Assembly: GCA_963664395.2 (NCBI GenBank)
Contig: OY761159.2
Location: forward strand, 800,001-864,000
Direction: 5' to 3'
Length of the DNA: 64,000 bases
From: Candidatus Binatia bacterium
GTDB taxonomy: Bacteria; Desulfobacterota; Binatia; Bin18
Made by a program: the position numbers and the translations under genes. This document shows positions 30,161 to 36,597 of this stretch, in pieces (position 1 is the first letter of the stretch; each line of letters begins with the position of its first letter). The notes below the pieces were generated by a model. That model had not been told where the DNA came from. It ran no database searches and worked only from the letters and a program-made list of their open reading frames with translations.

Positions 30161-30662
30161 GTGAAACAGACCGACCCTGGCGACACTATTCGCCTCGCGA
30201 CGAATCGCGATCTGCCCCTCTTCAGGGAAATGTTATTCGAGGCGGCATATTGGAATCCTCATCGCGAGCACCCGACTCTGGAAGCAGGCCTTGCCCCACC
30301 AGAGTTGGCAAAGCTCCTGCACAACTGGGGGCGCAAGGGGGATACTGCTATTGTCACCGTCAACAGGGCAAAAGGAATCTATTAGAGCGGTCTGGTATCG
30401 GCTCTGGACCCCGGAAGACCACTCGTATGAATTTGTTGATGGTGAAACGCCAGAGCTTGGGGTCGGAGTTTGCCCAGAGCAACGAGGTCGGGGGATTGGC
30501 ACAAGGCTGTTGAAAGCCTTGCTTAAAGAAGCCCAACGCCAGCAGCTTCAGCACGTAAGTCTGAGTATGGAGTTTGAAAACCCAGCCCTACGCCTGTACG
30601 AGCGTTTGAGTTTTCAAAAAATTGGTATCGTCGACACAGCTTGGACCATGGTCGTTGACCTA
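30161..30662 (+). pseudogene. GNAT acetyltransferase, frameshifted and hit by IS at its 3' end
   Basis: FREMLFEAAYW in one frame, VWYRL..PELGVGV..QRGRGIG..NPALRLYER in another; IS begins at the TA in codon CTA. Confidence 0.75.
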
Positions 30663-31502
30663 GGTTGTGTACTCATAAGTCCGTAGCCACAGGCGGACGG
30701 TAGCGAGTTTAATAAACGCCAAGAAGTTGGAGGCGGTTTTTTCATAGCGGGTGGCGATCCGGCGATAGTGTTTGAGTTTGTTGAAGAACCGCTCAATGAG
30801 GTTGCGCTGTTTGTACAGGACGGGGTCGAAGGGCGGGCGCTGGCGCCGATGGGCCTTGGGCGGGATATTGGCGGTTGCCCCCGCCTTGGCAATCTGGGCT
30901 CTGACCGCATTACTATCGTCAGCCTTGTCGGCCAACACCGTACAGCCCGCGCCGAGGAGACTGAGCAGTTCCGCCGCGGCCTGCACGTCGTGCGTTTGCC
31001 CAGGCGACAATACAAACGCCAGGGCACGGCCGCGCCCATCCACGTGGGCGTTGATCTTGGTCGTTAGTCCGCCGCGCCCTCGGCCCATACACCGCTCTCC
31101 CGTGTTTTTTTGAAGTGGTGGCATGTTGATGGACTCGTATGATCGAACTGTCAATCATTTGCACCTCGCCCGCCAAGGTTTCGGCCACGGCTGCCATCAG
31201 CCGATCCCACACGCCCGCCTTACGCCAGGGATTGAACCGGTTGTAGCAAGTGGTGTACGGCCCGTAGCGGGGGGCAGGTCCCGCCACGGCGCCCCCGTGC
31301 GCAATACCCAGAAAATCCCGCTCAAAACCCGCCGGTCATCCACCTGCGGGACGCCGCGCGGCTTGTGCGGCAACACCGGCGCAATCACCCTCCATTCCTC
31401 CTCCGTTAGATCGTAGCGCCCGCGCATCAGCTACCTCCCTTCGGCCAGACGCTTGAATCACACTCCTGCCCCGATAGGTAGCCCGTTTATGAGTACACGC
31501 CC
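30663..31502 (-). mobile_element. IS5 family (IS427-like) element IS-A, transposase frameshifted
   Basis: Imperfect IR GG(TT/GC)GTGTACTCATAA, TA flanks; DSS, ADKADD, NLIERFFNKLK..RRIATRYEK; A7 slip site plus an extra break in a C6 run near 31270. Confidence 0.9.
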
Positions 31503-31504
31503 TA

Positions 31505-32237
31505 GGGTCAGGACTCATAAACGGGATTTTCTTGGCCAGGGAGTTATGATTCTCTCTCCGCCGTGGAGGGAAGAGGCGATGAGCAATCAGTTCTGGCTTT
31601 CCGAAGCGCAATTCGCCCGGCTCCAGCCGCTGTTGCCGCCGGACACGCGCGGGGTGCCGCGGGTGGACGACCGGCGGGTGATCTCGGGGATCGTCCAGAT
31701 GTTGCAGAGCGGCTGTCGGTGGCGCGATGCGCCGCGTGTCTATGGGCCGTCCAAGACCCTGTACAACCGGTTCGTCCGCTGGGCGCGGAAGGGGGTCTGG
31801 GAGCAAGTGTTCACGGAGCTTGCGGAGGCCAGCGGCCCGCCCGGGACGCTGATGCTGGATGCGACTCCGGTCAAGGCGCATCGGTCGGCGGCGGGCGGAA
31901 AAGGGGGGCGCAGCAGCAGGCGATTGGGCGGTCCCGTGGGGGGCGGACCACGAAAATCCATGCCGCGGTCGATGAAGCCGGCCGCCTACGACAGCGATGC
32001 GCTCCGCGCTTGGCTGCGGCGCCGCGGCTGCCACGGTCATCCCTAACAACCCGCCCCGCAAGCGCAAACATCCCTTTGACAAAATCGCTTATCGGACCCG
32101 GAATGTCATCGAACGCACTTTCTGCCGCCTTAAGGACTGGCGCCGCGTCGCCACCCGCTACGATAAACTCGCCCACAACTACCTTGCCTCTGTCGCGCTC
32201 GCCGCCCTCGTCATCTATTGGTTATGAGTCCTGACCC
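31505..32237 (+). mobile_element. IS5 family element IS-B, internally deleted (copy 1)
   Basis: Perfect 16-bp IR GGGTCAGGACTCATAA, TA flanks, 733 bp; DEAGR joined directly to AYDSD. Confidence 0.92.
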
Positions 32238-32331: not shown

Positions 32332-33426
32332 CTACCACGACAAACACCGCCGTACGGCACGGGGAATTTCCTCTAGCTCGCGTACCCGAACGACGGTTCC
32401 CCGACCGACTTGCGCCATGCGGGTGCACAGCGCTGGATCACCGCCAGGAAGCTCAATAACGTGTAAACAAGTGAATTGTCGGGCAAGGGAGAGAGGGTCG
32501 GGGCCAGTGTTCAGCCAGCCATCAGTGACCAGAATACCAATGTGGTTATGGACCTGTGTTCTGGTAAGCTCTTCCAGTCCTGTTTCTAGCCCGCAGGCCA
32601 CATCAGTACATCCTTCTGATTGCATGCCCAAGATTTCCTGGATGATTTCCTCTTGAACCATCCGCGTACCAACTGCCCGGATCACATACCCCTCATCCGA
32701 AAAAGCAACCGCCCCCCATTCATCTTCAGGCAGAAGATTCAGCAACAATGTGGCTGTCACCAGCGCTGCCGATACGGCTTTGGAGCCACGCATTGAGCGG
32801 CTCTTGTCCAGCATCACCATATAAGCCCGACGGCGAAGGGTGCGTTCCTTGACTACCAGATCTGCATAATTTGCCGGTCCTGAGTGGTGTAAGGCGAATG
32901 GCGAGGAGAGCATCCGATCCAAAGAGGCCTCAAGGTCAAGTTCATCGGAGTGAAATCGATACTGAGCAGATTCAAACTTCCCATCGCGGCGGAACCTCCT
33001 GGGGACTGACACACGCGCCATTTTTAAAAGGAGGCGGACTATACGGTCCAGGTGTTGCTCCCGGGTCTCTGCATCGAGATTATCCCAGGTCAGGGTGAAC
33101 AGTTTTTCATAGGAGTGATGATGTGAAAGACGATCGAGGACAAGACGATGCCGGCCCATGATCTGCGCAACGCGGGTGGGGGCCACCTCAGCCAGGGAAA
33201 CGACGTCATCAAGCGCACCCTGGCTGAGCAGCTCGTCCGCCTCACGATCAAGCGGGGCATCGAGGTAGTGGTGGTGATCCTCGGGAGTGCCCGGATGATG
33301 GGCAAGCAGCCTGTGCTCGCTCTCGCTCAGAATGCGTCGGGGGGCCGGCCGCTGGGCTACCCCCTCCTCGACTTCATCTTCCAGATGTAACGGTCCCGGA
33401 GCTATGAGGCCGATTGAGCTGTAGGC
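32332..33426 (-). CDS. vWA (MIDAS) domain protein, CoxE-like; reading frame opens at the MoxR A9 run
   Basis: DKSRS, GCTD, LVTDG MIDAS residues; frame open 80 codons upstream of the first GTG (33186), which has no SD. Confidence 0.82.
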   Translation of the reverse strand, partial: AYSSIGLIAPGPLHLEDEVEEGVAQRPAPRRILSESEHRLLAHHPGTPEDHHHYLDAPLDREADELLSQGALDDVVSLAEVAPTRVAQIMGRHRLVLDRLSHHHSYEKLFTLTWDNLDAETREQHLDRIVRLLLKMARVSVPRRFRRDGKFESAQYRFHSDELDLEASLDRMLSSPFALHHSGPANYADLVVKERTLRRRAYMVMLDKSRSMRGSKAVSAALVTATLLLNLLPEDEWGAVAFSDEGYVIRAVGTRMVQEEIIQEILGMQSEGCTDVACGLETGLEELTRTQVHNHIGILVTDGWLNTGPDPLSLARQFTCLHVIELPGGDPALCTRMAQVGRGTVVRVRELEEIPRAVRRCLSW

Positions 33427-34337
33427 TTTTTTTTTAACTCGTTGGGGTCACCTAATTCCCAAAACTCACCATCCGGAGTATGCCATTCTTCGGCCAGACT
33501 CTGCCATATCTCCTGAATAATTTCCTCTGGCGTGCGGCTTGTGGTTTCATTCAGCCAAATTTTGTCCCGGAGCGCCATTAATGCAGAAGAGAAAACCAGG
33601 TGGGTGCGTTCCGTCCCTGCTCCGTCCTGAGAGTCGAGCAGCTGGCAGGCAATAAGAACCAGATCAATGGCTCCTCGAACCGACGCACCCAGCCGAATAT
33701 CCTTGTGGGCTCTTGTGCGTCGGGTCATTTCCATTGCCGTCGCCACCAGGCCCAGGTTACCCTGGTCTGTGTGCCGTTTGACAATATCGACCTCTTCGTC
33801 TCGGTTCTGATAGTCCATCCGGATCGAGCAGAAACGATCTCTGAGCGCCCGGCTCACCCTGGCTGTACCCGCATCGTCATAGGGGTTTAACGCGGCAACC
33901 ACACGGAACTCGGGTTTCGCCACCACACAGCCAAGATAGGGGAGGGTCAGCTCACGCTCTGAGGTGGCAGTAATAAAGGCATTGGTGGTATCGTCCGGCA
34001 GCCGGTTAAATTCCTCCACATACAGAATCGCCCCTTCTTGCATGGCCTGCGTCAGAGGACCATACTCAAAATGTTCCGGCTTATATCCTTTTGACAGCAC
34101 TTGGGCAGGGTCGAAGTGACCGAGCAGCTTTGTCGAGGTCAAATCGCTATTCCCCGTCACCTGGATAAAAGGGATACCCATTTCCTGCACGACGCTTTTG
34201 AGGATGGTCGATTTTGAGGTACCAGGGGGGCCCTCAAGCATCACATGCCGCCCGCCTAACAAAGCCGCCACAATCATCCGCGTTTCGTGACGCCGGCCAA
34301 CGAAGTGATCTACCACACGAGAGTAAAGTTCTTGCAT
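33402..34337 (-). CDS. MoxR family AAA+ ATPase
   Basis: LEGPPGTSKS (Walker A), YVEEFNR (Walker B), AALNP, SRALRDRF, GASVRG. Confidence 0.92.
   Translation of the reverse strand: MQELYSRVVDHFVGRRHETRMIVAALLGGRHVMLEGPPGTSKSTILKSVVQEMGIPFIQVTGNSDLTSTKLLGHFDPAQVLSKGYKPEHFEYGPLTQAMQEGAILYVEEFNRLPDDTTNAFITATSERELTLPYLGCVVAKPEFRVVAALNPYDDAGTARVSRALRDRFCSIRMDYQNRDEEVDIVKRHTDQGNLGLVATAMEMTRRTRAHKDIRLGASVRGAIDLVLIACQLLDSQDGAGTERTHLVFSSALMALRDKIWLNETTSRTPEEIIQEIWQSLAEEWHTPDGEFWELGDPNELKKKPTAQSAS
33426..33453 (-). other. Candidate -1 frameshift/slippage signal (AGGTGA-12 nt-A9G)
   Basis: A_AAA_AAG in MoxR frame; -1 frame has TGA at 33448-33450 then stays open to 32332. Confidence 0.7.
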
Positions 34338-34462: not shown

Positions 34463-35503
34463 TTATGCATTCGCCGGAGCACTATCACCGCGCGTGGGCA
34501 CGCCGACTAAGCGCCTGTACTCATCTCCGGTCGCGACCTCACGGCCCATGAGCTCGGCAATCGACTTGAACATGCGGAAATGATCGGCATTTGATTGGAT
34601 GAGGGCGTCCTGGTGAGGGTGTCGCCAGACAGTGTCTTCCATGCCAACCCGGACGTGAAGGCCTAAGATCATGGCTTGGATAGCCAGGTAGCTCGACGCC
34701 CGGCCAGCAGCACAGACAACAATTTCCGAGTCGCGGTCAATGTCATAGATCAGGTCAGTCAGGTGCATGATACCCCTGACCATCTGTCTGGGATTGTTCA
34801 TGGGACTGCCCCCGGGCAGCGTTGGGAGAATGATCCAAAAGTAAGGCTTTTCCAGTAAGCCGGTCTTAATCAAATAACGGTCCGCATTGTCCACATCGCC
34901 ATCAGAATATACTGCTATCTGCGGCTTGACGCCGAGCTCCTGACACAGCCGAGTTTTTTCTATGATGACATGTGGGGGTTTAGCAAAGAGGGTGTCTCCA
35001 CAGAAGGAAGCGGTTGTGTTAATGGGAGTGACCTCCAGCAAGCGGTCGCTCAGCACCGAGACCATGTTATCCCACTCTCCGTCCAGAAACGGCACCATGC
35101 AACCGTCATACACCGGGTCTGGAAACTCTTTGCGAACAGGGTCAATCACGCGATGGAAGAGTTCTGAGTCGAGGACGTTATAGCCTTCCTTATCACGCAC
35201 ATGCACATGGACGGTGGTGGCCCCGGCCTCAGCGCACTCCCGGGCCGAAGTAAGGATCTCATCCGGAGTGACGGGTAAGTTGGGGTTGTTTCGCTTGCTA
35301 TAAAAGGCGCCGTTAACCGTCTGTGAGATGACGACTTTATCCGGAATTTTCCACTTGGGCTGAACCTCAATATCCCCGTACTTAGAGGTAAAGGGATCAA
35401 CGACTTCTGGGAGCCCGTAGGGGTTCCAGATGGCTTTAAATTCTCCCTTCTTTTTCCACTCCTCAATATATTCCCAGTTGACTTTATCTTTCCTTTTGGC
35501 CAT
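34463..35503 (-). CDS. 3-keto-5-aminohexanoate cleavage (BKACE/DUF849) family protein
   Basis: NPNLPVTPDEI, AGA..VHVHVR, HVRVGMEDT. Confidence 0.9.
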   Translation of the reverse strand: MAKRKDKVNWEYIEEWKKKGEFKAIWNPYGLPEVVDPFTSKYGDIEVQPKWKIPDKVVISQTVNGAFYSKRNNPNLPVTPDEILTSARECAEAGATTVHVHVRDKEGYNVLDSELFHRVIDPVRKEFPDPVYDGCMVPFLDGEWDNMVSVLSDRLLEVTPINTTASFCGDTLFAKPPHVIIEKTRLCQELGVKPQIAVYSDGDVDNADRYLIKTGLLEKPYFWIILPTLPGGSPMNNPRQMVRGIMHLTDLIYDIDRDSEIVVCAAGRASSYLAIQAMILGLHVRVGMEDTVWRHPHQDALIQSNADHFRMFKSIAELMGREVATGDEYRRLVGVPTRGDSAPANA

Positions 35504-35616
35504 AGTTCACCTCTCCTTAGTTATGCTTGTCCCATTTCGCCCTCTCTCCCTCTAGTTCTGTTCCATTATACCTACTGTGTCAAGAGTTAAATGGTATCGT
35601 ATCAGCTCGTTGCCTA

Positions 35617-36415
35617 GGGCGTGTTCACACTATATCGGTTATAGTTGGGGGATGGAGCTTACCCAACAGCAGTATGAGCACCTCAAGGACTTGCTCCCGC
35701 GTCAGCGCGGGAACGTCAAGGGAGACAATCGGCGAGTGTTGGCAGCGATTCTGTACGTGGTAGAGCAGGGCGGTAAGTGGCGGGGCCTGCCGGAGCAGGG
35801 CGGTAAGTGGCATACGATCTATACGCGCATGAATCGCTGGGCGAAGAAGGGCGTGCTGGACCGGATAGTCGTGGCTTTACAGCAGCCGCAGCTCATCTGC
35901 GTGCGGGTCGAAGTGGTCTCGCTGGATAGTCCCGTCGTGCCAGTGCATCCGGACGGGCCGGGCGCGCGAAAAAAACCGGGCCGCAAGCCATCGGGAAGTC
36001 TCGCGGCGGCTGGACGACCAAGATTCATCTGGTTGCCGCGGATGCTGGCACCGCCGTGAGCTTTTCGTTGTCGCCGGGCCAAGCTGGCGATGCGCCTGAG
36101 GGCCGAAAGTTGCTGGCCGAGACTCCGTTGGAGGCCGAGTACGTGGTGATGGACCGGGCCTATGAGGGCGAGGCGACCCGGCAATGCGTGCGCGATTTAG
36201 GGGCGACTCCGGTCGTGCCGCCGAAGAGCAATCGCAGGGTACCGTGGCCGTACGACCGAGCAAAGTATAAGAAACGCAATGAAGTGGAGCGGCTCTTTCG
36301 CAGACTGAAGGGCTTCCGCCGCATCTTTTCTCGGTTCGACAAGCTCGATGTGGTGTTCGCCTTCTTCATCCACTTCGCACTCATCATTGAGGCGCTCAGA
36401 AGTGTGAACACGCCC
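35617..36415 (+). mobile_element. IS5 family (IS427-like) element IS-C
   Basis: Perfect 15-bp IR GGGCGTGTTCACACT, TA flanks in CTAG; transposase from ATG 35652 with -1 site at A7, DRAYE, NEVERLFRRLK; stop TAG formed by target. Confidence 0.92.
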
Positions 36416-36597
36416 TAGATGTTCGGCCCCGAGCATCCAGTCTTTGTGGGAAGTATTGACACGATCGACGGGGTTGGCGCTGGACGGGCCATAGGTTATA
36501 GTTTTTATTTCTCGATGCATCTGGGCCGCTATATAACTTGCGCCAGTAGGGCTAAAGCGTAGCCAACGGCATGAGTCTCACCGATAAGGAGGACGTC

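What the first reader, a model, noticed from the sequence alone, without database searches (positions are those of the whole stretch)
32332..34337. Candidate programmed -1 frameshift making both MoxR and a MoxR-vWA fusion from one locus
Seen: MoxR ends GAG TTA AAA AAA AAG CCT...TAG, with A9 at 33427-33435 and the stop eight codons later. The -1 frame has a TGA just before the run, then is open through an 80-codon acidic/His-rich linker (KAYSSIGLI...EDEVEEG...EDHHHYLD...) into the MIDAS vWA domain, which has no SD-supported start of its own. An SD-like AGGTGA lies 12 nt upstream. Products would be 311 aa and 668 aa. Known: A_AAA_AAG plus an upstream SD drives -1 shifting in dnaX and IS3-family elements, A9 runs permit transcriptional slippage, and chlD-like chelatase genes use frameshifting to make AAA and AAA-vWA subunits. 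Inferred: the same stoichiometry trick in a MoxR/CoxD-CoxE chaperone, giving rings with a minority vWA-bearing subunit. I know of no description of this for MoxR proper. Only a weak downstream hairpin is visible.
Basis: partly seen in the sequence, partly recalled or inferred. Interest (0 to 1): 0.9.

Follow-up and report, generated by a model that had tools for sequence, protein, structure and literature searches.

The report
Poly-A slip site joining MoxR and vWA
A run of nine A's lets one gene of a sponge-associated Binatia bacterium make both a short ATPase and a long ATPase-plus-adaptor protein; the run is kept in related genes of many bacteria and archaea, and the same trick is already published for chlD chelatase genes.

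Summary
On the minus strand a 311-aa MoxR-type AAA+ ORF (34337..33402) ends just after an A9 run (33427-33435). A vWA/MIDAS reading frame in the -1 frame is open from 33447 to 32332. It has no canonical start for 80 codons after the run.

- **A9 is real.** Contigs of four public runs from four studies, one an Illumina metatranscriptome, cover it without indels. The assembly is not riddled with homopolymer frame breaks.
- **The start-less linker is translated.** Its pN/pS is 0.15 in the vWA frame against 1.8 and 1.65 in the other two frames.
- **The site is conserved.** Of 104 homologous loci, 45 have shifted, overlapping MoxR and vWA frames. Of these, 43 carry A8-A13 in the overlap and 2 carry A_AAT_TTT plus a stop. 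The offset is -1 in 42 of 45. Bacteria and archaea are both represented.
- **Other layouts exist.** Some homologues are in-frame fusions. Actinomycetota have a MoxR gene followed by a MoxR-vWA gene.

Verdict: a programmed one-base slip gives MoxR (311 aa) and MoxR-vWA (668 aa). Whether the ribosome or RNA polymerase slips is unresolved. The proposed SD and hairpin are not supported. The protein is of the NorQ/NorD-CbbQ/CbbO-midasin type, not chlD. I rate it a new member of a known kind. This scan has noted the same thing before in other genomes.

The parts
33402..34337 (-). MoxR-type AAA+ ATPase ORF, zero frame, 311 aa (P0001). The short product.
   Evidence: Pfam AAA_5 scores 88.5 bits against a cutoff of 22. 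Closest solved sequences are midasin AAA, CbbQ and NorQ.
33427..33435 (-). A9 run (TTA AAA AAA AAG), the proposed slip site.
   Evidence: No indel in contigs of 4 runs. A8-A13 at the same place in 43 of 45 shifted homologous loci.
33448..33450 (-). TGA in the -1 (vWA) frame. It is the upstream limit of the window in which the shift must occur.
   Evidence: In some relatives this stop abuts the run itself (L039, L050).
33402..33447 (-). 46-nt overlap of the two open frames. It runs from the first sense codon of the vWA frame to the MoxR stop.
33448..33453 (-). Present, but not supported as a stimulator.
   Evidence: Conserved only in the 4 species of the genus. Relatives at 64-68% identity have other sequences there.
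33187..33426 (-). Acidic/His-rich linker in the vWA frame with no ATG/GTG/TTG. Translated only after the slip.
   Evidence: pN/pS is 0.15 in this frame against 1.80 and 1.65 in the other two. pLDDT is below 50 for residues 1-29 and 52-62 up to about residue 60 of P0002.
33013..33285 (-). Helical domain preceding the vWA fold (P0002 residues about 54-144).
   Evidence: AlphaFold2 model, mean pLDDT 85.8.
32341..32976 (-). vWA domain with a complete MIDAS motif (DKSRS at 32794-32808, T280, D308 of P0002).
   Evidence: Pfam VWA_2, VWA and VWA_CoxE. Invariant D213, S215, S217, T280 and D308 in alignments A1-A3. The best fold matches are NorD chains of NorQD complexes.
32332..33447 (-). Whole vWA-frame open stretch, 371 codons plus stop. 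It forms the C-terminal 364 aa of the 668-aa long product.
34463..35503 (-). BKACE (beta-keto acid cleavage enzyme family) gene immediately upstream on the same strand. A conserved neighbour and possible client.
   Evidence: Pfam BKACE for the orthologues in L023, L024 and L030. A BKACE homologue is next to the locus in 19 of 104 loci, or 14 of 65 clusters.

Best explanation
This is one gene with a programmed recoding site. Standard decoding gives a 311-aa MoxR-type (NorQ/CbbQ-like, AAA_5) ATPase that stops seven sense codons after the A9 run. In a fraction of expression events a one-base slip on the run moves reading into the -1 frame. The slip could be RNA polymerase adding one A to the transcript, ribosomes slipping back one base on A_AAA_AAG, or both. 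Reading then continues through a disordered acidic/His-rich linker and a helical domain into a NorD-like vWA/MIDAS domain, giving a 668-aa MoxR-vWA fusion.

Shown here: A9 is real; the linker has no start codon yet is under purifying selection in the vWA frame; the run is conserved at this junction across bacteria and archaea; fused and two-gene homologues exist.

Inferred: both products are made. By analogy with chlD reporter data the long form may be a large minority. The two forms co-assemble so that a MoxR ring carries few vWA adaptors, as in the NorQ6-NorD1 complexes. The client may be the BKACE enzyme encoded next door.

I lean slightly (about 55:45) to polymerase slippage as the main route on the A-run.
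For: **The run is real.**
- A9 sits in contigs of 4 runs from 4 studies with 0 gaps, including a 2372-nt contig from an Illumina metatranscriptome.
- Only 15 of 1006 homopolymers of 7 or more in the genome lie at apparent frame junctions, and 0 of 125 A/T8 runs do.

**The linker is translated.**
- Four species of the genus keep the split. pN/pS in the vWA frame is 0.15 for the start-less linker, 0.13 for MoxR and 0.22 for vWA. The other frames give 1.5-3.3.
- In relatives at 64-68% identity the stretch between the MoxR stop and the first Met has pN/pS 0.32 against 1.45 and 1.67. A conserved G-x-L-[LIV]-A-P-x-x-x-H peptide lies there.

**The site is conserved.**
- Of 104 loci, 45 have shifted and overlapping frames. 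Of these, 43 have A8-A13 in the overlap (A9 x11, A10 x28, A13 x3, A8 x1) and 2 have GAA AAT TTT plus a stop. The offset is -1 in 42 of 45.
- By cluster at 90% nt identity or more, 29 of 31 shifted clusters carry the run.
- Taxa named in record titles include Binatia, Syntrophaceae, Thermodesulfobacteriota, Spirochaetota, Proteobacteria, Aerophobetes, Bathyarchaeota and Hydrothermarchaeota.
- At least 46 of the 60 A/T runs of 9 or more in 488,045 nt of these loci are the junction runs themselves.
- In L039 and L050 the overlap is only 13 nt (TGA-A10-G-TAA), which pins the shift to the run.

**Other layouts point the same way.**
- Single-ORF fusions exist, for example a 659-aa ORF in L006 with an in-frame A10.
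- Actinomycetota encode MoxR plus MoxR-vWA as two genes without a run.
- G000 has no close MoxR paralogue; the next best is 31% identical.

**A-runs are otherwise avoided in this genome.** Of 117 KKK tripeptides in long ORFs, 1 is AAA-AAA-AAA, although AAA makes up 52% of Lys codons.

**Published precedent.** The chlD 'magnesium chelatase' cluster shows 63%, 40% and 10% shifting for 11, 9 and 7 A's in E. coli reporters (PMC3711429, passages read).
Against: No product has been observed. All read data available were contigs, which cannot show minority RNA lengths.

Three shifted loci have a +1 offset (G015 with A8, L029 with A9, L120 with A10). A strict -1 ribosomal shift cannot explain these.

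Four relatives have the run in frame (L006, L053 and L054 with A10; L028 with A11). L028 is at least 90% identical to L060, which has A10 and is shifted. That could instead mean DNA-level length instability or assembly error in some records.

Twenty-seven single-MoxR fused loci have no long run, so the family does not always need two products from one gene.

Most relatives at 64-68% identity, and G015, have an in-frame ATG preceded by GAAGAGGGG 22 codons after the run. A separately initiated vWA protein is therefore possible in those genomes, though not in this one, which has GTA there.

No conserved stimulatory RNA structure or SD was found.
Confidence: 0.85

Rival explanations
1. DNA-level phase variation. 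The A-run is a hypermutable tract. Cells switch between A9 (MoxR only) and A10 (fusion) by replication slippage, so the two proteins come from different cells rather than from one template.
For: Run length differs between close relatives. The genus shows A9, A9, A10 (by substitution) and A8. L028 (A11, in frame) and L060 (A10, shifted) are at least 90% identical. L053 and L054 carry an in-frame A10 within the 64-68% identity clade.
Against: Contigs from four studies of this species or close strains all show A9. Of the 45 shifted loci, 42 are fixed in the same -1 offset, and in-frame run-bearing forms are rare at 4 loci. A random on/off switch would show more in-frame states. The product is cytoplasmic chaperone-like, not a surface antigen; that point is inference.
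Confidence: 0.06
2. Two ordinary genes. MoxR and a separately initiated vWA adaptor, as in NorQ/NorD or CbbQ/CbbO, with the A-run acting only as an A-rich translation-initiation enhancer or arising by chance.
For: Many MoxR systems encode the vWA partner separately (NorQD structures). Of the best 150 representatives found with the vWA half, 113 are under 500 aa. Relatives and G015 have an SD-like GAAGAGGGG plus ATG 22 codons after the run.
Against: In this genome, G006 and G021 that codon is GTA. No ATG/GTG/TTG occurs for 65-80 codons after the run, yet the stretch evolves under purifying selection in the vWA frame (pN/pS 0.15). In relatives the peptide upstream of the ATG is also conserved (pN/pS 0.32). 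tblastn homology starts at residues 1-4 of the open frame, at the KKK.
Confidence: 0.04
3. A recently broken fusion gene (pseudogene) or a homopolymer sequencing error.
For: One extra A would give a plain 668-aa fusion. Some related records come from long-read MAG assemblies, judged only from record titles.
Against: A9 appears in four independent runs, one of them Illumina. The same split occurs in 4 species with purifying selection on both halves. It also occurs in many contigs whose names mark short-read assemblers (NODE_, k141_) and in other metagenome contigs. Genome-wide, only 15 of 1006 homopolymers lie at frame junctions.
Confidence: 0.03

Closest known systems
Frameshifted chlD ('magnesium chelatase', fs-chlD) genes: Antonov et al. 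2013 (PMC3711429, passages read); Kuznetsov, Milenkin and Antonov 2022 (PMC9227772, abstract, introduction and passages read); Atkins et al. 2016 review (PMC5009743, passages read); Antonov 2020 MBE (not held; known only from citations)
   Same: One gene yields an AAA+ subunit and an AAA+-linker-vWA subunit. The shift is -1 at A_AAA_AAR or longer poly-A. It is found in bacteria and archaea. Fused and two-gene (chlI plus chlD) layouts exist in other lineages. Some fs-chlD genes sit in genomes without chlorophyll or B12 pathways and have unknown function.
   Different: The ATPase here is AAA_5 (midasin/CbbQ/NorQ-like), not the ChlI/BchI type. PF01078 scores 17.9 against a cutoff of 20.3. TIGR02031 scores 23.6 against 499.55 and TIGR02442 scores 27 against 779.45. 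No ChlI or BchI is among the 60 listed of 71 PDB sequence hits. The neighbour is a BKACE gene, not cobN or chlH. Whether the tBLASTn-defined 'chlD' set of those authors reaches this family could not be checked, because supplements and their database were not available.
NorQ-NorD and CbbQ-CbbO MoxR/vWA activase pairs (PDB 9qh4-9qhg NorQ and NorQD; 6l1q and 5c3c CbbQ)
   Same: The ATPase half is most like CbbQ and NorQ by sequence (E 4e-15 and 3e-14). The vWA half is most like NorD by fold (Foldseek E 4e-10). The MIDAS motif is complete. In the listed NorQD entries the NorD chain is labelled G; the reading that chains A-F are six NorQ copies is my inference from that label, not seen in a call, and it fits a ring with a minority adaptor.
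   Different: There the adaptor is a separate gene without its own AAA+ module. Here the adaptor is fused to a full copy of the ATPase and reached only by recoding.
dnaX tau/gamma (E. coli -1 PRF at A_AAA_AAG; Thermus thermophilus transcriptional slippage at A9), as described in PMC3711429 (passages) and PMC5009743
   Same: An AAA+ protein is made in long and short forms from one gene on a poly-A site. Homologous genes use ribosomal or polymerase slippage interchangeably. Both two-ORF and in-frame layouts exist.
   Different: In dnaX the zero frame usually gives the long form and the slip gives the short one. Here, and in 42 of 45 shifted relatives, the zero frame gives the short form.
Midasin (Rea1/Mdn1)
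   Same: AAA_5 modules, an acidic linker and a C-terminal MIDAS domain lie in one polypeptide. It is the best PDB sequence match of the ATPase half (3e-33). Rea1 and MDN1 MIDAS domains are among the fold hits.
   Different: Midasin is a eukaryotic giant of about 4700-4900 residues (chain lengths), which by recall carries six tandem AAA modules in one chain, and no recoding is known for it.

Membership tests
MoxR-type AAA+ ATPase, AAA_5 (CbbQ/NorQ/GvpN/midasin) group | Pfam AAA_5 above the gathering score | tested here: met
   88.5 bits against a cutoff of 22, residues 31-169.
MoxR-type AAA+ ATPase, AAA_5 (CbbQ/NorQ/GvpN/midasin) group | Walker A, Walker B, sensor 1 and Arg-finger-like motifs | tested here: met
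   GPPGTSKS, ILYVEEFN, AALNPYD and ALRDRF are visible in P0001. The motif names and consensus are recalled, not taken from a tool.
MoxR-type AAA+ ATPase, AAA_5 (CbbQ/NorQ/GvpN/midasin) group | Equivalog-level membership of a named subfamily (GvpN, CobS, MadB) | tested here: not met
   GvpN scores 86.6 against 266.8, CobS 32.5 against 558.55 and MadB 40.1 against 475. It is an unnamed subfamily.
vWA / MIDAS adaptor (NorD/CbbO-like) | vWA domain model above the cutoff | tested here: met
   VWA_2 scores 33.7 against 27 and VWA 27.9 against 23.8. VWA_CoxE scores 25.8 against 26.4, just below.
vWA / MIDAS adaptor (NorD/CbbO-like) | MIDAS residues DxSxS...T...D | tested here: met
   D213, S215, S217, T280 and D308 are invariant in A1, A2 and A3.
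vWA / MIDAS adaptor (NorD/CbbO-like) | Fold resembles the adaptor of a solved MoxR complex | tested here: met
   The model has pLDDT 85.8. The top Foldseek hits are NorD chains 9qhd_G, 9qhe_G and 9qh6_G, with E 4e-10 to 2.5e-09 and TMt 0.52-0.61. There is no sequence-level PDB hit.
chlD/bchD medium chelatase subunit (fs-chlD) | ChlI/BchD-type AAA+ module (PF01078, TIGR02031, TIGR02442) | tested here: not met
   PF01078 scores 17.9 against 20.3, over residues 12-49 only. TIGR02031 scores 23.6 against 499.55 and TIGR02442 27 against 779.45.
chlD/bchD medium chelatase subunit (fs-chlD) | Works with a large subunit (cobN/chlH) | not tested
   None is adjacent in the window, where the neighbours are BKACE and IS elements. 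The genome was not searched for cobN or chlH.
Programmed recoding site (PRF/PTR) | Two overlapping frames whose parts are one ORF in homologues | tested here: met
   Fused homologues exist in L006, L028, L033, L036 and others. Of the 150 representatives, 37 are 509-711 aa.
Programmed recoding site (PRF/PTR) | Slip-prone motif conserved at the junction in divergent homologues | tested here: met
   43 of 45 shifted loci carry A8-A13 and 2 of 45 carry A_AAT_TTT. By cluster, 29 of 31 carry the run.
Programmed recoding site (PRF/PTR) | Downstream frame lacks its own start yet is under purifying selection | tested here: met
Programmed recoding site (PRF/PTR) | Trans-frame product or edited RNA observed | not testable with these tools
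   Only contigs of public runs were available.
Programmed recoding site (PRF/PTR) | Stimulators (upstream SD at 10-14 nt, downstream structure) | tested here: not met
   AGGTGA is not conserved outside the genus. alifold gives -4.4 kcal/mol and single-sequence z-scores range from -2.4 to +0.9.
Phase-variable contingency locus | Run-length polymorphism within a population | tested here: inconclusive
   All four runs show A9, but contigs drop rare variants.

The most novel reading that the evidence does not exclude
Poly-A recoding may be an ancient, pan-prokaryotic way to set the ring-to-adaptor ratio of NorQ/CbbQ-type MoxR machines, so that a few subunits of each hexamer carry a tethered MIDAS adaptor. 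The A-run length would act as an evolvable dial. In the Binatia/Syntrophaceae clade this machine may be a dedicated activase or metal-loading factor for the adjacent BKACE enzyme. That would be a new enzyme-activase pair comparable to CbbQO-Rubisco or NorQD-NOR.
Probability: 0.25. Interest if true: 0.7.

Novelty: new member of a known kind. Interest (0 to 1): 0.5.

Why it matters
Genome annotation splits these loci into two genes, or calls the second half a start-less fragment. Recognising the slip site corrects the gene model for a family that spans many bacterial and archaeal phyla.

The finding extends the chlD and dnaX principle, in which an AAA+ subunit with and without an appended domain comes from one gene, to NorQ/CbbQ-type MoxR chaperones. 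Their adaptor stoichiometry is of current structural interest.

The tight linkage with a highly conserved BKACE gene gives a testable candidate client. The mixture of A9-A13 sites and A_AAT_TTT sites at the same position offers a natural system for comparing polymerase slippage with ribosomal frameshifting, including in archaea, where few cellular cases are documented.

Tried and rejected
- **Sequencing or assembly error:** rejected.
- **Pseudogene:** rejected by purifying selection on both halves in four species.
- **Independent start of the vWA protein in this genome:** rejected. There is no canonical start for 80 codons and the linker is constrained. An internal ATG with an SD-like sequence exists in relatives and G015 but is GTA here.
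- **Upstream SD stimulator:** not conserved.
- **Downstream hairpin or pseudoknot:** no conserved structure.
- **KKK as a general protein motif of the linker:** only 7 of 37 fused representatives contain KKK anywhere, so the run is not explained by a conserved poly-Lys peptide.
- **RNA-level evidence for added A's:** not obtainable. All 24 listed runs are held as contigs. The RNA contig of X7 shows A9 only, and the tool warns that presence in an RNA library does not prove transcription.
- **The search for related loci with the 21-sequence alignment A2:** failed for lack of a conserved stretch. It was repeated with the 5-sequence alignment A3.
- **PDB sequence search with the vWA half:** no hit.
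- **Literature:** 'MoxR' plus 'frameshifting' gave 5 papers, none relevant. 'Transcriptional slippage' plus 'von Willebrand' gave 1 irrelevant paper. 'Transcriptional realignment', AAA, ATPase and frameshift gave nothing on MoxR among the 15 listed. 'MoxR', 'vWA' and 'Willebrand' occur 0 times in the Atkins 2016 review as held (its first 300,000 characters), and 'MoxR' and 'Willebrand' occur 0 times in Antonov 2013. The supplements of these papers, which hold the cluster lists, could not be seen and might include this family.
Full report
**What is there**

The feature lies on the minus strand. A 311-aa ORF (34337..33402, P0001) ends ...GAG TTA AAA AAA AAG CCT ACA GCT CAA TCG GCC TCA TAG. The A9 run is at 33427-33435. 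The -1 frame carries TGA at 33450-33448 and is then open for 371 codons to 32332 (P0002 is 370 of these). The first ATG/GTG/TTG in that frame is GTG at 33186, 80 codons after the run.

Pfam calls the first ORF AAA_5 (5.2e-25) and the second VWA_2, VWA and VWA_CoxE. No NCBIfam equivalog is reached. A slip on the run would give 304 + 364 = 668 aa.

**Is the A9 real?**

The assembly (5.04 Mb, 14 contigs, 57% GC) has only nine A/T runs of length 9 and none longer. I tested each of 1006 homopolymers of 7 or more for whether adding or removing one base would join two long open frames. Only 15 qualified, including 0 of 125 A/T8 runs and 1 of 9 A/T9 runs, which is this one. The assembly is not riddled with homopolymer errors.

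Public runs holding the stretch come from at least 9 studies, several labelled sponge metagenome. All are kept as contigs. I laid four runs from four studies:
- X3: a 9015-nt contig, identical, possibly the source.
- X7: an Illumina metatranscriptome, 2372-nt contig, word depth 36.9.
- X9: a related strain with 11 substitutions.
- X12.

All four cross the run with 0 gaps. Contigs cannot show minority variants, so they say nothing about RNA heterogeneity.

**The linker is translated**

Only 4 of 28 genomes of the genus hold the gene. Record titles call these genomes Candidatus Binatia. The four show:

| Genome | Run | Layout |
|---|---|---|
| G000 | A9 then G | vWA at -1 |
| G006 | A9 then G | vWA at -1 |
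| G021 | A10 then CCC (a G-to-A substitution) | same as G000 |
| G015 | A8 then G (one A fewer) | vWA at +1 |

Summed over the pairwise comparisons, pN/pS is 0.13 for MoxR. It is 0.15 for the 71 codons between the MoxR stop and the first GTG, read in the vWA frame. It is 0.22 for the rest of vWA. The two other frames of each segment give 1.5-3.3. The pairs are not independent, but the contrast between frames is plain.

Relatives at 64-68% identity align from residue 3-4 of the open frame, that is from the KKK. Between the MoxR-frame stop and the first Met, pN/pS is 0.32 in the vWA frame against 1.45 and 1.67 in the others. A peptide G-x-L-[LIV]-A-P-x-x-x-H is conserved there. That stretch has no start codon upstream in its frame, so it can only be reached from the MoxR frame.

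**Comparative survey**

I scanned genome contigs (31 loci) and metagenome contigs (70 loci) with a 5-sequence vWA alignment. I added three loci from the genome search (L001, L005, L006). Both halves were located in all 104 loci by tblastn.

| State | Loci |
|---|---|
| Shifted, overlapping frames | 45 |
| Shifted without overlap (L049, L118; probably degenerate) | 2 |
| Single-MoxR in-frame fusion, no run of 9 or more | 27 |
| In-frame fusion with A10 or A11 in the linker (L006, L053, L054, L028) | 4 |
| Two MoxR modules (free MoxR, then MoxR-vWA) | 13 |
| Incomplete at a contig end | 13 |

All 13 two-MoxR loci have 66-74% GC, and those among them that come from the genome scan carry Actinomycetota-type titles.

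Of the 45 shifted loci, 43 carry an A-run in the overlap (A8 x1, A9 x11, A10 x28, A13 x3). Two (L031, L074) carry GAA AAT TTT followed by a stop, which is an A_AAT_TTT heptamer. The vWA frame is at -1 in 42 and at +1 in 3 (G015 A8, L029 A9, L120 A10).

Collapsed at 90% nt identity or more there are 65 clusters. Of these, 31 are shifted, 29 with the run and 2 with the heptamer.

The 104 loci hold 60 A/T runs of 9 or more in 488,045 nt, and at least 46 of them are these junction runs.

In L039 and L050 the overlap is only 13 nt. The -1-frame TGA abuts the run and the zero-frame TAA follows AAG. In many other loci the zero-frame stop is 0-2 codons after the run.

The run survives in a locus of 71% GC (L026). 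In the own genome, A-runs are otherwise avoided in coding sequence. Of 117 KKK tripeptides in 2757 long ORFs only 1 is AAA-AAA-AAA, although AAA is 52% of Lys codons.

Record titles place the shifted loci in Binatia, Syntrophaceae, Thermodesulfobacteriota, Spirochaetota, Proteobacteria, Aerophobetes, Bathyarchaeota and Hydrothermarchaeota. Many contigs carry assembler-style names that mark short-read assemblies (NODE_, k141_).

**Mechanism**

The data show that both halves are under selection, that the second can only be read after a frame change, and that the change must occur on the run. That both products are made is inferred. G000 has no second close MoxR gene; the next best is 31% identical. 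Some lineages encode MoxR and MoxR-vWA separately, which argues that both forms are needed.

The sequence does not decide between ribosomal -1 shifting and polymerase slippage.

For the ribosome:
- The 42:3 bias towards -1.
- In-phase A_AAA_AAN heptamers, often followed directly by a stop.
- The A_AAT_TTT sites in two clusters.

For the polymerase:
- No shifted locus has A7 or A6G, although seven bases would suffice for a ribosomal site. Lengths are 9-13.
- The base after the run is free (G, C, T or A).
- The +1-offset and in-frame relatives keep the run.

Neither proposed stimulator holds up. AGGTGA is conserved only inside the genus, where it encodes L-G-D and supplies the -1-frame stop. An alignment of 11 Binatia-clade sequences downstream of the run gives a consensus fold of only -4.4 kcal/mol, and single-sequence z-scores range from -2.4 to +0.9.

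For scale, Antonov et al. 2013 measured 63%, 40% and 10% shifting for 11, 9 and 7 A's from chlD cassettes in E. coli (PMC3711429, passages).

**What the protein is**

The best solved-sequence matches of the ATPase half are midasin AAA modules (3e-33), CbbQ (4e-15), NorQ (3e-14), a MoxR of unknown function (2r44) and CobS (4e-08). No ChlI or BchI is among the 60 listed of 71 hits.

The vWA half has no sequence hit in the PDB. An AlphaFold2 model built on a 21-sequence alignment has mean pLDDT 85.8. It shows:
- a disordered first 30-60 residues;
- a helical domain at residues 54-144;
- a vWA fold at residues 157-368.

Its best Foldseek matches are the NorD chains of the NorQD complexes released in 2026 (E 4e-10). 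The MIDAS residues D213, S215, S217, T280 and D308 are invariant.

It therefore works like a NorQ/NorD or CbbQ/CbbO pair in which the adaptor is tethered to a copy of the ATPase. It is not a member of the chlD/bchD family, since its models score far below their cutoffs.

**Context**

A BKACE-family gene (PF05853) lies immediately upstream on the same strand (34463-35503). A BKACE homologue of 60-85% identity lies next to the locus in 19 of the 104 loci, or 14 of 65 clusters. These cover the Binatia clade and the Syntrophaceae/Thermodesulfobacteriota clade. It is more conserved than MoxR or vWA.

Other neighbours seen:
- RACo-type reductive activators (L032, L044).
- An OYE-like flavin oxidoreductase, by Pfam in L044; the ORF downstream of the gene in L006 looked similar by eye but was not scanned.
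- DUF362 (L024).
- An MFS transporter (L030).

A role as activase or maturation factor for the BKACE enzyme is a hypothesis only. In G000 and G006 the locus is flanked by IS elements.

**Known or new?**

Poly-A recoding that yields an AAA+ subunit and an AAA+-vWA subunit is published for chlD (Antonov 2013; Kuznetsov et al. 2022, PMC9227772; reviewed in PMC5009743). That work includes fs-chlD genes in genomes without chlorophyll or B12 pathways, whose function is called unclear.

My searches found no description for MoxR/AAA_5-type genes. The supplements and databases that list all clusters could not be seen.

This scan has already reported the same kind of site in other genomes, for example in Dadabacteria and Asgard archaea. 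One of those notes shares short words with P0001. I reached the present conclusions from my own calls, and the earlier notes agree with them.

I class the finding as a new member of a known kind. It is solidly supported as a conserved recoding site, with the mechanism (polymerase or ribosome) and the function still open.

Noticed in passing
window 30660-32234 and 35577-36418: IS5-family-like insertion sequences flank the locus, each split into two overlapping ORFs. The copy at 30660-31427 (minus strand) has an A7 run at 31105-31111 (CTTCAAAAAAACACGG) between its ORFs. The G006 copy has A8 there. This is probably the usual transposase frameshift site.
   Followed up: no
L031 (about 2975-2990) and L074: Two relatives, one of them a Bathyarchaeota MAG, replace the A-run by GAA AAT TTT T(GA/AG). 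This is an A_AAT_TTT heptamer followed by a zero-frame stop at the same MoxR/vWA junction. It is a purely ribosomal type of -1 site.
   Followed up: partly
L034, L035, L041, L046-L048, L051, L052, L095, L105, L106, L108, L122: These loci all have 66-74% GC; those from the genome scan (L034-L052) carry Actinomycetota-type titles, and the metagenome loci bear no organism names. They carry a free MoxR gene directly followed by a MoxR-vWA fusion gene, with no A-run. The layout resembles ChlI/ChlD.
   Followed up: partly
window 34463-35503; L022-L026, L029, L030, L053-L061, L071, L073: A highly conserved BKACE-family gene (60-85% identity) sits just upstream of the MoxR-vWA gene in 14 of 65 clusters. 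It is a possible client enzyme.
   Followed up: partly
L028 versus L060: Two sequences at least 90% identical over 500 nt or more differ in run length. A11 is an in-frame fusion and A10 is shifted by -1. This is either natural length instability or an assembly difference.
   Followed up: no
G000 C1: 204419, 221254, 524819, 1044038, 1052987, 1295397, 2050418, 2440952, 2877922, 2886221, 3064859, 3982347, 4203060, 4311454: Fourteen other homopolymers (mostly A/T7, plus one C8 and one C7) lie where a one-base change would join two long open frames. Some may be IS frameshift sites, pseudogenes or further recoding sites.
   Followed up: no
L005 (G015) about 1570-1580; L024-L026, L053, L056-L058: An in-frame ATG preceded by GAAGAGGGG lies 22 codons after the run (G-M-T-Q-R). 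It could give a third, free vWA product in those genomes. G000, G006 and G021 have GTA (Val) there.
   Followed up: partly
L032 563-2023 (minus strand), L044 1-993: RACo-type reductive activators of corrinoid proteins lie next to the MoxR-vWA gene in an archaeal and a proteobacterial relative. This matches an earlier scan note that links this helper to corrinoid methyltransferase operons.
   Followed up: no
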